NCBI RefSeq assembly: GCF_009914755.1
Contig: NC_060944.1
Length of the DNA: 64,000 bases
Strand: one strand, 5' to 3'
Origin: the human T2T-CHM13v2.0 reference genome, Homo sapiens
Below, piece after piece: positions 16,301-21,036 of this stretch. Position 1 is the stretch's first letter; the number at the start of each line of letters is the position of its first letter. Below the pieces are notes generated by a model. The model made no database searches, had not been told where the DNA came from, and worked only from the letters and a program-made list of their open reading frames with translations. Position numbers and translations under genes: made by a program.

Positions 16301-17803
16301 AGATAGCAATTTGTCAGACCGTGACTTAGGTTTGCCTTAACATTGTCTATTAAAAACAGGGGTTTACTAAGCAGATTAATAAAATAAACAAGGAAAAATT
16401 TAGGATTAAAGGACATCTCACTGTTTTCAAACTCCAGAAGCATAGCAGGCATTGATTTCAGACATTTTATATGGTAATTATGAGAAAAATTTCTCTTTGT
16501 TAAAACCTTCCCAAGATTTTAAAAGATATATAGCTGGACTCAACCTTCCTTTGTCCTTGGCAATGTGACAAAGCAGCATTTTTAGAAAAGAATGTAAATT
16601 GGACTTGACCTTGGTTATACACAGGGAGAGTTATCAAGGTCATTTTATTGGGATTTTGTTTGTATTGTAATTGCTATTAAAATGAATCAAGAAGTAAGTA
16701 TAGAACATCTCTTTTTCGTTCAACATTCTGCTCTGGGTACTGAGACTGCAAGTCTTAAATGCAGATCTATTTCTCCATTCTCAAGTAATGATGTGTTTTC
16801 CTTAATCTTCTCCAAGTCCACTGGAGAAGGTACTATGATTGCAAATGCTACTAGATCAACATCACGGAAAATGTTTCCTAGACTTTATTCCTGAAGAGGA
16901 TAATACTTGCAGACTATCAGCCTCCATCAAAGCTGGTGAATGAAACCCACTGAACCTGTATAAAAGAGGCCCAGGAAAACTGTGTTTTTGGTCTGATCTA
17001 TCAGATCATCATTGAAGATCAAGATCAGAGAACAGGTCTCTAAACCGAAGCAAACTTAACATCTCAAACCAGAATGAACTGGAAATATAAGCAGCATTTT
17101 TATTCTTTCTAAAAATGGATTTTTCAAATAGTTTTGATTTATCAAAGATTCACAATCATTTTGTCATATTCTTTCCCACATCAACCCCTGCCTTTACGCC
17201 CTTCTGTGAAACCCACGTTTAATTTAGGGGGAACTTAAATCCATATATTTCTGATTCATTTGCTCGATGTTCTTTGGGAAGGCCTAGTTGATGTACGAAG
17301 AGTCTTATGATAACTTTTATAAGCCTTTAAGAATTTTTCTTGGAGACAGAAAATCATCTTTTCAGGCTTAAAGTGATCCTCAAAATCAGAAAAAAACTCT
17401 GGCTTATTGGAAATGGTGCTTTGAGGGAGTCTTAAACTCAGGCATTTGTGTATGTGTGTCCCACCCCAGTTGTGAGCTGTGCAGCAGGTAGCAGATAAAT
17501 AGCCCCTGAGAGGTGGGAGAAGCACAGGAAAAGGGACACAAAAAGAACCCGAATAGTGTAAGGATTCTTGGACCTGCCATGTTTTTCCATTTCTGAAGAG
17601 CAACCAGGGAAGTTCCACAACCTATAAAGTCAGATTCAATCTATGAAGCATATCTAAAGCCAAATGATTGTCAATCAACTTTGTATAGCATCTCTGAGCA
17701 AGTCAGAGAATGCTAGGACAGCTTTCAGATTTGTAAATAGCATAAGGCTTCATTTGTAAGTGCACTTCACTGTTGCTCAGCACTGTTCAGTGACCAGTCT
17801 TCA

Positions 17804-19616
17804 TTTTTTTTTCTTATTACACTTTAAGGGCTGGGTTACATGTGCAGAACATGCAGTTTTGTTGCATAGGTATACACGTGCCATGGTAGTTTGCTGCACC
17901 CATCAACCCATCACCTATATTAGGTATTTCTCCTAATGTTATCCCTCTCCTTGACCCGCACCCTTACAGGCCCTGGGTGTGATGTTCCCTTCCTTGTGTC
18001 CATGTGTTCTCATTGTTCAACACCCACTTATGAGTGAGAACATGGGGTGTTTAGTTTTCTGATCTTGTGATAGTTTGCTGAGAATGATGGTTTCCAGCTT
18101 CACCCATGTCCCTGTAAAGGACATGAACTCATTCTTTTTTATGGCTGCATAGTATTCCATGGTGTATATATGCCACATTTTCTTAATCCAGTCTATCACT
18201 GATGCACATTTGGGTTGGTTCCAAGTCTTTGCTATTGTGAATAGTGCTGCAATAAACATACGTGTGCATGTGTCTTTTTAGTAGAATGATTTATAATCCT
18301 TTGGATACATGCCTAATAATGGGATTGCTGGGTCAAATGGTATTTCTAGTTCTAGATCCTTGAGGAATCACCACACTGTCTTCCACAATGGTTGAGCTAA
18401 TTTACAGTCCCACCAACAGTGTAAAAGCGTTCCTATTTTTCCACAAAGTCTCCAGCATTTGTTGTTTCCTGACTTTTTAATGATCACCATTCTAACTGGT
18501 GTGAGATGGTATCTCATTGTGGTTTTAATTTGCATTTCTCTAATGACCAGTATGATGACGATTTTATCATATGTCTGTTGGCTGCATAAATGTCTTCTTT
18601 TGAGAAGTGTCTGTTCATATCCTTTGCCCATTTTTTGATGAGGTCATTTGCTTTTTTCTTGTAAATTTGTTTAAATTCTTTGTAGATTCTGGATATTAGC
18701 CTTTTGCCAGATGGATAGCTTGCAAAAATTTTCTCCCATTCTATAGGTTGCCTGTTCACTCTGATGATAGTTTCTTTTGCTGTGCAGAAGCTCTTTAGTT
18801 TAATTAGATCCCATTTGTCAATTTTGGCTCCTGTTGCCATTGCTTTTGATGTTTTAGACATGAAGTCTTTGCCCATGCCTATGTCCTGAATGGTATTGCC
18901 CAGATTTACTTCTAGAATTTTTATGGTCCTAGGTCTTATGTTTAAGTCTTTAGTCCATCTTGAGTTGATTTTTGTATAAGGTGTAAGGAAGGGGTCCAGT
19001 TTCAGTTTTCTGCATATGGCTAGCCAGTTTTTCCAACACTATTTATTAAATAGGGAATCCTTTCCCCATTGCTTGTGTCTGTCAGGTTTGTCAAAGATCA
19101 GATGGTGGTAGATGTGTGGTGTTATTTCTGAGGCCTCTATTCTGTTCCATTGGTCTATATATCTGTTTTGGTACCAGTACCATGCTGTTTTGGTTACTGA
19201 GGCCTTGTAGTATAGTTTGAAGTCAGGTAGTGTGATGCCTCCAGCTTTGTTCTTCTTGCCCATTATTGTCTTGGCTATGTGGCTCTTTTTTGGTTCCATA
19301 TGAAGTTTAAAGTAGTTTTTTCCAATTCTGTGAAGAAAGTTAGTGGTAGCTTGATGCGGATAGCATTGAATGTATAAATTACTTTGGGCATTAAGGCCAT
19401 TTTGACGATATTGGTTCTTCTTATCCATGAGCGTGGAATGTTTTTCCATTTGTTTATGTCCTGTCTTATTTCCTTGAGCAGTGGTTTGTAGTTCTCCTTG
19501 AAGAGGTCCTTCACATCCCTTGTAAGTTGTATTCCTAGGTATTTTATTCTCTTCATAGCAATTGTGAATAAGAGTTCACTCATGATTTGGCTCTCTGCTT
19601 GTCTGTTTTTGGTGTA
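17804..19616 (-). mobile_element. 5'-truncated L1PA7/L1PA8-like element (3' ~1.8 kb), 3' partner of the FAT1 chimera
   Basis: Antisense L1 3'UTR and short T-tail at 17804; ORF-track fragments 18017-19583 are frameshifted L1 ORF2p C-terminal peptides ([40 protein letters not shown]). Confidence 0.95.
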
Positions 19617-20124
19617 AATTCTCTTTTACACTTTCAGAGTCTGCTTCAATGGCATAGGTGACATAGGCATTGGAGCCCTCATCAGCATCACTTGCAAGAA
19701 CTTTAATGACTAAAGTCCCCGTAGCAGCACTGGGTCTGATATTCACTTCATATTTGGTCACTCGAAATTGTGGTGTATTATCATTGTCATCTGTAAGGAT
19801 GACATTAACTGTGCGGAAAGCAACTTTCCCACCAGCATCCTTAGCCATTAAACCGACTGAGATCACTTTCTCCGCTGGGGTTTCTCGATCAAGTTTTTCC
19901 AGAGTAAGTATCTGTCCTCTCTCATTTATATAAAATCTGTCTTTGGCAAAGTCATTTACAATATGTTAAGTAACGTGACCATAAATACCAAAACCCCCAT
20001 CCGTAGTTTTAACCCCTATCACCAGGGTATGTAGCGGAGCGTTTTCAGCTAGTTTCACTTCATATTCATTCTGAAGAAAAGCAGGACTGTGCAAATTTTC
20101 TGCAATTACAGTCACATGAACCTC
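19616..20124 (-). pseudogene. FAT1P1: Retrocopied internal fragment of FAT atypical cadherin 1 (FAT1) CDS, about 170 codons of cadherin repeats with one in-frame stop
   Basis: Single frame [22 protein letters not shown]...GHVT*HIVNDFAKDRFYINERGQILTLEKLDRETPAEKVISVGLMAKDAGGKVAFRTVNVILTDDNDNTPQF...ASDADEGSN...[11 protein letters not shown]. Cadherin Ca2+ motifs LDRE, AxDxG, DxNDNxPxF and DxDxG are present. I recognise the peptide as FAT1. TAA at 19966-19968. The symbol FAT1P1 is from memory of an annotated FAT1 pseudogene and is not verified for this locus. Confidence 0.85.
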
Positions 20125-20423
20125 TTTTTTTATTTTTTTTTTTGACGGAGTTTTGCTCTGTCGCCCAGGCTGGAGTGTCATGGCATGATCTCGGCTCACT
20201 GCAACCTCTGCCTCCTGGGTTCAAGCAATTCTCTTGCCTCAGCCTCCCAAATAGCTGAGATTACAGGTGCCCGCCACCACGCCTGGCTAAGTTTTGTATT
20301 TTTAGTAGAGATGGGATTTCATCATGTTGTCCAGGCTGGTCTCAAACTCCTGACCTCAGGCAATTTACCTGCCTCAGCCTCCCAAAGTGCTGGGATTACA
20401 GGCATGAGCCACTGCACCCGGCC
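20125..20423 (-). mobile_element. Full-length AluS; A-tail abuts the FAT1 fragment
   Basis: Antisense Alu, T-tail 20125-20143, intact 5' end GGCCGGGTGCAGTGGCTCA at 20423; no TSD directly flanking the Alu alone. Confidence 0.95.
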
Positions 20424-21036
20424 TTCATTTTCTAAAGAGCACAATAAAGTGTAAAGATGAAAAATTGTTGATTACAGAGTTAAACAAGTTCTACTAAGAA
20501 TATGAAGACTGTGGGCTCGTTAGGGACACATGAACAATCGCTGGACAGTGTGTGCAAAAGTATAAGAATAATTTTCTTTGTCCCATTTATTTCAGCTGTG
20601 CTATGACCTTTTTTAAGCAGGCTTTGAGGGCACCTGATGTCTCTGGGAAAAGAATGATATATAAACCACTCATTTAAGCCAAGTACTTGGCAATGCATGC
20701 ACGCTCATCAGAAATGGGTCATTTTATTGCTAAGAGCTTGGACTCTTCCTGGCTCGAGTGTCATTTTTCTACTAAGGCCAGAAATGTGCTCCACTATCAT
20801 CATCCCAAGTTTGGCCAATTTTTCCAAAGCCAGTGTTTATACAATCCTCCTAAAAAGTTTTCTAGCCTCACCAGGCTGCAGTGGGGTGACTTGGAAAGCA
20901 GGGATGTGATGAACCTTCATCTCAATGAATGCCACTACTATCTATGTAGGTTTTCAAAGAAAAAAAAACCCAGAACAACACTTGATTCTTTTCTTTTTAT
21001 GCTTTCCAAATGCAACCTATCAGCAAGTTCAAGAAG

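What the first reader, a model, noticed from the sequence alone, without database searches (positions are those of the whole stretch)
17800..20433. Composite Alu - FAT1 fragment - L1 retro-insertion bracketed by one TSD (candidate tripartite template-switch chimera)
Seen in the sequence, minus strand 5'->3' with no spacer DNA: full-length AluS (20423->20144), its A-tail (->20125), ~509 bp of FAT1 cadherin CDS (20124->19616), then an L1PA 3' ~1.8 kb with a short A-tail (->17804). All three parts are co-oriented. The Alu has no TSD of its own (left flank catgaacctc, right flank ttcattttct). Instead TTCATTTT occurs just beyond the Alu 5' end (20424-20431) and again just beyond the L1 tail (17800-17807). 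The right copy ends in TTCT/AA, an L1 endonuclease-type site. Established: L1 ORF2p makes chimeric retrocopies (e.g. U6-L1) that have a single TSD pair and often a full-length small RNA at the 5' end, and AluS and L1PA7/8 were active at broadly the same time. Inference, model A: one TPRT event copied L1 RNA, then FAT1 RNA, then Alu RNA (two switches, three RNA classes). Model B: the Alu inserted first and a bipartite FAT1-L1 chimera later landed in its poly(A) tail, so the Alu's TSD now encloses everything. The TSD is short and T-rich, so it is supportive rather than decisive.
Basis: partly seen in the sequence, partly recalled or inferred. Interest (0 to 1): 0.9.

Follow-up and report, generated by a model that had tools for sequence, protein, structure and literature searches.

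The report
Alu, FAT1 fragment, L1: shared duplication
A 2.6-kb patchwork of an Alu, a piece of the FAT1 cadherin gene and the tail end of an L1 element sits between one pair of short target-site repeats; the FAT1-L1 join is a known kind of reverse-transcriptase template switch, but one genome cannot show whether the Alu arrived in the same event.

Summary
On the minus strand, with no spacer, lie a full-length Alu (20423-20144), its A11TA7 tail (20143-20125), one unexplained G (20124), 508 nt of a FAT1 coding exon (20123-19616), then 1.8 kb of L1 3' end and a short A run. AAAATGAA abuts both outer ends (20431-20424 and 17807-17800).

The FAT1 piece is 92% identical to a single 4.1-kb exon on chromosome 4 and has no poly(A). 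It meets the L1 at one shared T. This is a classic L1 template-switch chimera.

The three parts have indistinguishable ages. Non-CpG divergence is 5.3% for the L1, 5.7% for FAT1 against its parent, and 6.1-8.2% for the Alu. CpG retention does not differ.

Published base rates suggest landing in Alu A-rich stretches is commoner than a second switch. I give B about 0.5 and the single-event tripartite model about 0.3.

Tripartite chimeras are already in print, so this is a new member of a known kind. Interest is modest.

The parts
20424..20431 (-). Upstream copy of the target-site duplication, AAAATGAA, directly 5' of the Alu
20144..20423 (-). Full-length dimeric Alu body (GGCCGGG... to ...CTCCGTC)
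   Evidence: two 7SL-like arms, matched from model position 1; 4084 candidates in the genome, 40 scored, at 86-90% identity.
20125..20143 (-). Alu A-rich tail, A11 T A7
20124..20124 (-). Single G between the Alu tail and the FAT1 homology. The parent gene has C here, so it is either an untemplated base or a substitution.
19616..20123 (-). 508-nt copy of the inside of one FAT1 coding exon (cadherin repeats), annotated as FAT1P1. It has 40 differences from the parent, no indel and one in-frame stop.
19616..19616 (-). T shared by the FAT1 parent and by L1 copies, giving 1-nt microhomology at the FAT1/L1 junction
   Evidence: 27 of 28 L1 copies read T here; both homologies reach 19616.
17813..19615 (-). 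5'-truncated L1 3' part: the last third of ORF2 plus the 3' UTR, ending ..GTAATAAG
17808..17812 (-). The A's left for the L1 tail once the 4 A's of the duplication are subtracted from the A9 run (17804-17812)
   Evidence: One search shows that short runs are usual for L1 copies of this age.
17800..17807 (-). Downstream copy of the target-site duplication, AAAATGAA

Best explanation

First event: an Alu inserted at ...TTAG/AAAATGAA and duplicated AAAATGAA.

Second event: within an interval too short to resolve by divergence, an L1 reverse transcriptase primed in the T-run opposite the Alu's A-tail. It copied the last 1.8 kb of an L1 RNA and then switched at a single shared T onto the inside of a FAT1 mRNA exon. 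It copied 508 nt, and the cDNA end was joined to the Alu tail with one extra G. The A7 left of FAT1 and 7 of the 9 A's right of the L1 would be the second duplication. The Alu's own duplication therefore now encloses everything.

Shown: the parts, their order and orientation, the junctions, the enclosing repeat, the single-exon origin of the FAT1 piece, and the equal ages.

Inferred: the RNA origin of the FAT1 piece, the template switch, and the order of events.

The block has no sign of function. It lies in an intron of a lncRNA and has not spread.
For: - The FAT1 piece is internal to one 4.1-kb open exon. It lies about 2.6 kb and about 1.0 kb from the ends of that open frame. It has no poly(A) and no splice-site-like edges, and it meets the L1 at a 1-nt microhomology. 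This is the anatomy of an L1 template-switch chimera as described in Gogvadze 2007 (passages) and Law & Burns 2026 (sections).
- The FAT1 piece occurs in only 2 places in the genome, itself and the parent.
- The Alu tail reads A11-T-A7. The complementary strand is therefore TTTTTTT/A, which matches the TTTT|A nick motif quoted in Levy 2010. The FAT1 end lies exactly 7 A's after that T, and the right-hand run of 9 A's can hold those 7.
- Base rates. Levy 2010 reports about 15,759-19,000 sense-orientation Alu insertions into the A-rich linker of other Alus. Landing in an Alu A-stretch is therefore a per-cent-level event. Law & Burns count 452 Alu/L1 chimeras in the whole genome, which is per-mille or less of L1 insertions; the denominator is my own estimate.
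- The ages allow it. The Alu's non-CpG divergence of 6.1-8.2% is equal to or slightly above the L1's 5.3%.
Against: - Nothing here shows the Alu without its passengers, and no empty or intermediate site could be examined. The flanks are unique in this genome, and no other primate genome is held.
- B needs two short duplications (8 bp and at most 7 bp) and an L1 tail of only 2-3 nt, or later shrinkage of the A run.
- The age estimates do not show the Alu to be older. The Alu gives 15 of 244 differences against 93 of 1752 for the L1. CpG retention is 4 of 19 for the Alu against 10 of 41 for FAT1 plus L1, Fisher p = 1.0.
- The base-rate argument rests on literature numbers and on my own rough denominators, not on a count made here. 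My attempt at a count stopped.
Confidence: 0.5

Rival explanations
1. Model A: one TPRT event with two template switches. ORF2p nicked at the AAAATGAA site and copied 1.8 kb of L1 RNA. It jumped onto FAT1 mRNA, copied 508 nt, then jumped onto the A-tail of an Alu RNA and copied it to its 5' end. This gives a true tripartite chimera with one duplication.
For: - A single 8-bp repeat sits exactly at the Alu 5' end and after the L1 A run, against about 1e-4 per position by chance.
- There is no Alu-own repeat and no spacer, and all three parts are co-oriented.
- The Alu is full length, as in most published Alu/L1 chimeras.
- The three parts have the same age within error.
- An extra G lies at the Alu-tail/FAT1 junction, as an untemplated addition would give.
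- Double switches are documented. Two mouse B2-U6-L1 chimeras carry 15-16-bp repeats and there is one fungal case.
- Only one short duplication and a 5-nt L1 tail are needed. A runs of 6-10 are seen, by eye, in about 9 of 17 readable L1 copies of the same age.
Against: - Every feature above is also produced by model B.
- The FAT1 cDNA end has no T-run to pair with an Alu A-tail.
- The nick site reads TTTT/CT, or TTCT/AA with a 9-of-10 repeat. It is not the canonical TTTT/AA.
- A second switch onto Alu RNA should be rarer than landing in an Alu tail (denominators are mine).
- The locus is absent from the 2026 catalogue. It is not among the 9 chr20 rows of Table S4, and FAT1 appears in none of the 4 supplementary tables. 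This is weak evidence, because the catalogue's filters may have dropped the locus.
Confidence: 0.3
2. The FAT1-L1 join was made before reverse transcription. It could have arisen by ligation of RNA fragments. Alternatively it could have been transcribed from a lost FAT1 allele that carried a sense-oriented, 5'-truncated L1 inside this exon and was polyadenylated at the L1 signal. The fused RNA was then retrotransposed with 5' truncation, and the Alu arrived by either route A or route B.
For: - Law & Burns discuss RNA ligation before TPRT as an alternative to template switching for sense-oriented chimeras.
- A 1-nt microhomology junction is equally typical of an L1 5' junction in genomic DNA.
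- The FAT1 piece lies within one exon, so nothing in it speaks against a transcript of a disrupted allele.
Against: - No such L1 is present at this place in the FAT1 exon of this genome. The parent exon is open and contiguous.
- An L1 inside a coding exon of FAT1 would be a damaging, short-lived allele.
- There are no splice signals at the junction.
- No positive evidence was found.
Confidence: 0.12
3. A DNA-level patchwork with no RNA step for the FAT1 piece. A 508-bp stretch of chromosome 4 DNA was copied or captured as filler during repair of the break made by the L1 insertion.
For: The fragment lies within one exon. The usual proof of an RNA intermediate, intron loss, is therefore not available.
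Against: - The piece is co-oriented with the L1 and joined at the point where the L1 cDNA ends.
- Its boundaries are both within coding sequence.
- There is no flanking intron or other chromosome 4 DNA.
- Chimeras of this form are well explained by the reverse transcriptase.
Confidence: 0.04

Closest known systems
Bipartite L1 chimeric retrocopies (U6/L1, mRNA/L1 and others; template-switch model), as described in Gogvadze et al. 2007 (PMC2104539, passages and section 8) and Law & Burns 2026 (PMC13174262, sections 10-13, 19)
   Same: The 3' part is a 5'-truncated L1 with an A tail, and a second transcript copy is fused head-to-tail in the same orientation with no poly(A) between. The junction has 0-1 nt of homology, there is a flanking duplication, and the copy has not propagated.
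   Different: The 5' partner here is an internal 508-nt piece of a long coding exon, not a full-length small RNA. An Alu lies directly upstream, inside the same duplication.
Tripartite chimeric retroelements made by a double template switch (Gogvadze et al. 2007): fungal WEIRD/Mg-SINE/MGL, mouse B2/U6/L1, and two human candidates without recognisable repeats
   Same: The order is SINE, then a second RNA, then LINE, all in sense with no spacers and one pair of direct repeats around the whole.
   Different: The middle part is an mRNA fragment. The repeat is only 8 bp, against 14-16 bp in those cases. The SINE/middle junction lies in an A-run, so a second hidden duplication cannot be excluded. 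The same caveat would apply to the mouse cases.
Alu/LINE-1 chimeric insertions (452 loci, Law & Burns 2026)
   Same: A full-length sense Alu lies 5' of a truncated L1, and both are bounded by a duplication of at least 7 bp. The Alu and the L1 are of matching age.
   Different: Here 508 nt of FAT1 lie between the Alu and the L1. The locus is not among the 9 chr20 rows of their Table S4.
mRNA/LINE-1 '5' transduction' chimeras (17 loci, Law & Burns 2026)
   Same: Sense-oriented gene sequence is fused 5' of an L1 within one duplication.
   Different: Those carry first exons, often end at splice donors, and join near-full-length L1s. This one is an internal exon piece without splice signals, joined to a 1.8-kb L1 stump.
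Sequential (nested) insertion into Alu A-rich stretches (Levy, Schwartz & Ast 2010, PMC2836564, passages)
   Same: A sense-orientation insertion occurs at a T/A step within an A-run of an Alu. The A-run serves as primer-binding site and merges with the new tail.
   Different: That study scored insertions within Alu bodies, mainly at the linker hotspot, and not in terminal tails. The incoming element here is itself a chimera.
Classical processed pseudogene
   Same: A copy of mRNA sequence at an unlinked locus, decaying neutrally: 20 synonymous and 20 non-synonymous differences and one stop.
   Different: It has no 3' end of the mRNA, no poly(A) of its own and no exon junction.

Membership tests
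L1 template-switch chimeric retrocopy (bipartite) | Copies of two unrelated transcripts are fused directly, in the same orientation and without a spacer | tested here: met
   FAT1 homology ends and L1 homology starts at the same base, 19616.
L1 template-switch chimeric retrocopy (bipartite) | The 3' part is a 5'-truncated L1 ending in an A tail | tested here: met
   1.8 kb matches dispersed L1 copies and ORF2p residues 829-934 and is followed by A9.
L1 template-switch chimeric retrocopy (bipartite) | The 5' part has no poly(A) of its own at the junction | tested here: met
   The junction reads ..GAGAATTT|ACACC...
L1 template-switch chimeric retrocopy (bipartite) | A target-site duplication flanks the chimera | tested here: inconclusive
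   For FAT1-L1 alone the candidate repeat is A7, which is uninformative. AAAATGAA flanks the larger block that includes the Alu.
L1 template-switch chimeric retrocopy (bipartite) | The 5' part derives from RNA | not testable with these tools
   The fragment lies within one exon, so it offers no intron loss to score.
Tripartite chimera (double template switch) | Three co-oriented transcript copies without spacers | tested here: met
   Alu, FAT1 and L1 are all on the minus strand, and only one G is unaccounted for.
Tripartite chimera (double template switch) | One duplication around the whole and none at the internal junctions | tested here: inconclusive
   The outer repeat is present. The Alu/FAT1 junction lies in an A-run that could hide a second duplication.
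Tripartite chimera (double template switch) | All parts have the same age | tested here: inconclusive
   Non-CpG divergence is 5.3% (L1), 5.7% (FAT1, both lineages) and 6.1-8.2% (Alu, 244 sites). CpG retention does not differ. The result is compatible, but the Alu estimate has a standard error of about 1.5%.
Tripartite chimera (double template switch) | All-or-none presence at the orthologous site in other species | not testable with these tools
   No other primate genome is held. The flanks have no paralogue in this genome.
Alu/LINE-1 chimeric insertion (Law & Burns 2026) | The Alu is joined directly to the L1 | tested here: not met
   508 nt of FAT1 lie between them. The locus is not listed among the 9 chr20 rows.
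Classical processed pseudogene | The copy reaches the mRNA 3' end and carries its poly(A) | tested here: not met
   The copy ends about 1.0 kb before the end of the open frame of the same exon and runs into L1.

The most novel reading that the evidence does not exclude
The block is a true single-event tripartite retrocopy. One human-lineage ORF2p molecule copied L1 RNA, then the inside of a protein-coding mRNA, then a whole Alu RNA. It would be the first human three-RNA-class chimera with a recognisable target-site duplication and an mRNA as its middle part.
Probability: 0.3. Interest if true: 0.45.

Novelty: new member of a known kind. Interest (0 to 1): 0.3.

Why it matters
In itself it matters little. 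It is a dead, single-copy insertion in a lncRNA intron, of a kind described since the early 2000s.

It is useful in two ways. First, it is a clean example of ORF2p picking up an internal piece of a long coding exon. That differs from the first-exon, splice-linked mRNA/L1 chimeras that dominate the 2026 catalogue.

Second, it shows a general ambiguity. Any chimera or L1 that lands in the A-tail of a resident Alu ends up enclosed by that Alu's duplication and looks like a larger single-event chimera. The same caveat touches the published Alu/L1 and SINE-U6-L1 'chimeras' that are supported only by an enclosing repeat and co-presence within one phylogenetic interval.

Tried and rejected
- Alu inserted after FAT1-L1 (Alu last). 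Rejected: the Alu's flanks (..agaaaatgaa and gaggttcatg..) share no repeat.
- FAT1 as an ordinary processed pseudogene, or trans-spliced to the L1. Rejected: there is no poly(A), both breakpoints lie about 1 kb or more inside one open exon, and there are no GT/AG signals at the join.
- A longer repeat or a 3' transduction. An 18-nt similarity (15 of 18) links 17585-17602 to the flank at 20424-20441 (D14). No A run precedes it, and matches of this size are expected by chance in 3.3 kb, so I treat it as chance.
- A paralogous empty site. Both 500-nt flanks hit only themselves in the genome.
- Tree terminal-branch age for the Alu, using copies picked by likeness to it. This is biased low (0.031, rank 2 of 30). 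It was replaced by counts against column majorities from look-alike and bystander copies.
- Tail length as a discriminator. L1 copies of the same age show pure A runs of 6-10 in about 9 of 17 readable cases, read by eye. The A9 here is therefore ordinary and does not separate A from B.
- A sample of L1 5' ends, to measure how often they abut an Alu tail. I did not pursue it.
- Earlier findings of the scan.
- Literature. A search for 'FAT1P1' found 5 papers (listing only). In the one opened, the term is a primer name. A search for 'FAT1 pseudogene' found 0 papers. Terai 2010 (PMC2831318, abstract only) concerns poly(A)-bearing short pseudogenes and is not relevant.
- The PDF supplements of Law & Burns (mmc1, mmc6, mmc7) and the additional files of Gogvadze 2007 were not seen. 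They may show the two human tripartite candidates.

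
Full report
WHAT IS THERE

Read on the minus strand, the region is a gap-free series:
- unique flank ...ctctttag
- AAAATGAA (20431-20424)
- an Alu from GGCCGGG at 20423 to ..CTCCGTC at 20144
- its tail A11-T-A7 (20143-20125)
- a single G (20124)
- 508 nt of FAT1 coding sequence (20123-19616)
- 1.8 kb of L1 3' end (to ..GTAATAAG at 17813)
- nine A's (17812-17804)
- TGAA (17803-17800)
- unique flank gactgg...

The 8-mer AAAATGAA thus abuts the Alu 5' end, and it follows the L1 once the last four A's of the run are counted into it.

IDENTITY OF THE PARTS

Alu. Rfam finds two 7SL-like arms at 20306-20422 and 20142-20287 on the minus strand. Both are below the gathering score, as Alu monomers should be. 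The genome search found 4084 candidates, of which 40 were scored, at 86-90% identity.

FAT1. The piece matches only itself and C4:189965358-189965865 (92%, contiguous, 2 candidates, both scored). That place lies inside one open frame of 1373 codons. It is about 2.6 kb from the frame's upstream end and about 1.0 kb from its downstream end. The copy therefore contains no exon junction and does not end at an exon edge. It encodes cadherin repeats (Pfam Cadherin, E 1.9e-9; PDB cadherin and protocadherin chains).

L1. The first look found 5292 candidates, of which 40 were scored. Identity is 86.5-91.3% over about 1.8 kb to 18 copies. The translation matches LINE-1 ORF2p residues 829-934 (E 3.4e-43).

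JUNCTIONS

At the FAT1/L1 join, the parent gene reads ..GAGAATTT|GGAAATT and L1 copies read ..TTCCTAT|ACACCAA. The locus reads ..GAGAATTT ACACCAA. The T at 19616 is common to the FAT1 parent and to 27 of 28 L1 copies, a 1-nt microhomology.

There is no poly(A) after the FAT1 piece and no GT/AG at the break.

At the Alu/FAT1 join, the parent reads ..CCACC-C-AGGTTCATG and the locus reads A7-G-AGGTTCATG. There is no homology to an A-run, and one base (G against C) is either untemplated or mutated.

RefSeq's FAT1P1 (19601-20123) includes 15 nt (19601-19615) that are L1, not FAT1.

IS THE REPEAT MORE THAN CHANCE?

AAAATGAA occurs 12 times on both strands of the window, against 9.9 expected from shuffles. 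That is about 1e-4 per position. Having a copy exactly at each outer boundary is therefore unlikely by chance, even allowing some ten registers.

Extended by two bases the repeat matches 9 of 10. The nick site would then read TTCT/AA on the + strand (D14); with the 8-bp reading it is TTTT/CT.

The Alu has no repeat of its own. Both flanks are unique in the genome.

AGES

The L1 part sits in a star-like tree of 19 copies with a terminal branch of 0.058 over all sites and 0.053 over non-CpG sites. That places it at rank 9-10 of 19. Against column majorities it differs at 93 of 1752 non-CpG sites, or 5.3%.

The FAT1 copy differs from today's parent at 40 of 508 sites and has no indel. At non-CpG sites the count is 27 of 471, or 5.7%, summed over both lineages. 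There are 21 of the 40 differences at third codon positions, 20 synonymous and 20 non-synonymous changes, and one stop.

The Alu differs at 15 of 244 non-CpG sites (6.1%) from the majority of 29 look-alike copies. Against 40 bystander copies of mixed subfamilies, it differs at 20 of 243 (8.2%). The medians of those two comparison sets are 4.9% and 8.7%.

CpG sites retained are 4 of 19 for the Alu, 4 of 26 for the L1 and 6 of 15 for FAT1. Fisher p is 0.46-1.0 across thresholds.

The three parts cannot be told apart in age. With 244 sites, however, the Alu estimate could hide a difference of several million years.

WHAT IT IS

The FAT1-L1 join has the anatomy of an L1 reverse-transcriptase template switch (passages). 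It also differs from the 17 mRNA/L1 chimeras of Law & Burns 2026, which carry first exons, often end at splice donors and join near-full-length L1s. I regard that part as settled, apart from the untestable RNA origin of a single-exon fragment. I keep small probabilities for a pre-formed fused RNA and for DNA filler.

THE OPEN QUESTION: HOW DID THE ALU GET THERE?

Model A is one event with two switches. Model B is an Alu first, with the chimera later landing in its tail. Both predict:
- the same enclosing repeat
- no Alu-own repeat
- co-orientation
- a full-length Alu
- matching ages, if the interval between events was short

Detail that fits B: the T in the tail gives TTTTTTT/A on the other strand, the nick motif quoted in Levy 2010. 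The FAT1 end lies exactly seven A's after it, and the right-hand A9 can hold that A7 plus a 2-nt L1 tail.

Detail that fits A: only one short duplication is needed, plus an ordinary 5-nt tail. Short A runs of 6-10 are seen, by eye, in about 9 of 17 L1 copies of the same age, so the tail length does not discriminate.

Base rates tilt to B. Levy 2010 reports some 15,759-19,000 sense insertions of Alu into the A-rich linker of other Alus, which is per cent level. All Alu/L1 chimeras number 452, which is per mille or less of L1 insertions by my rough denominator. Some of those 452 may themselves be B-type, because their evidence is an enclosing repeat plus co-presence within one time interval.

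I therefore put B at about 0.5, A at about 0.3, a pre-formed FAT1-L1 RNA at about 0.12 and DNA-level repair at about 0.04.

KNOWN OR NEW?

Tripartite chimeras are in print. There is one fungal case and two mouse B2/U6/L1 cases with 14-16-bp repeats, plus two human candidates without recognisable repeats (Gogvadze 2007).

The 2026 catalogue's tables contain multi-part 5' segments, for example an Alu plus a Y-RNA piece before an L1 with a 15-bp repeat, and a 7SL plus an LTR piece before an L1.

This locus is not in those tables. FAT1 appears in 0 of 4 files. No chr20 coordinate beginning 1085-1090 appears, that is, no row in 10.85-10.91 Mb. None of the 9 chr20 rows of Table S4 is this locus. The hg38 position is my estimate from the T2T coordinate.

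No paper describing the structure of FAT1P1 was found.

It is a new member of a known kind.

An Alu-only lineage would prove B. All-or-none presence would not prove A unless the insertion maps to a short internode.

Noticed in passing
window 19601-19615: The RefSeq FAT1P1 feature (19601-20123) extends 15 nt past the end of FAT1 homology. These bases align to L1 copies, not to the FAT1 gene.
   Followed up: yes
window 17585-17602 and 20424-20441: An 18-nt similarity (15 of 18) links a site 200 bp beyond the L1 tail to the flank that holds the upstream duplication copy. No A run precedes it, and I judged it a chance match.
   Followed up: partly
window 20238-20289 (minus): Rfam gives a sub-threshold match to the mir-1268 precursor family (54.5 bits against a gathering score of 83) inside the right arm of the Alu. 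This is presumably because that family is Alu-like.
   Followed up: no
window 19966-19968 (minus): The FAT1 copy has one in-frame stop (parent ..GHVTYHIV.., copy ..GHVT*HIV..) and no indel over 508 nt. Changes are equally synonymous and non-synonymous (20 and 20), as expected for neutral decay.
   Followed up: yes
supplementary Table S4 of PMC13174262 (not the window): Several catalogued 'Alu/LINE-1 chimeras' have duplications that lie inside A-rich or Alu sequence, for example AWAAAWAAATAAAWAAAW and ATCCCAGCACTT. Their single-event status faces the same ambiguity as this locus.
   Followed up: no
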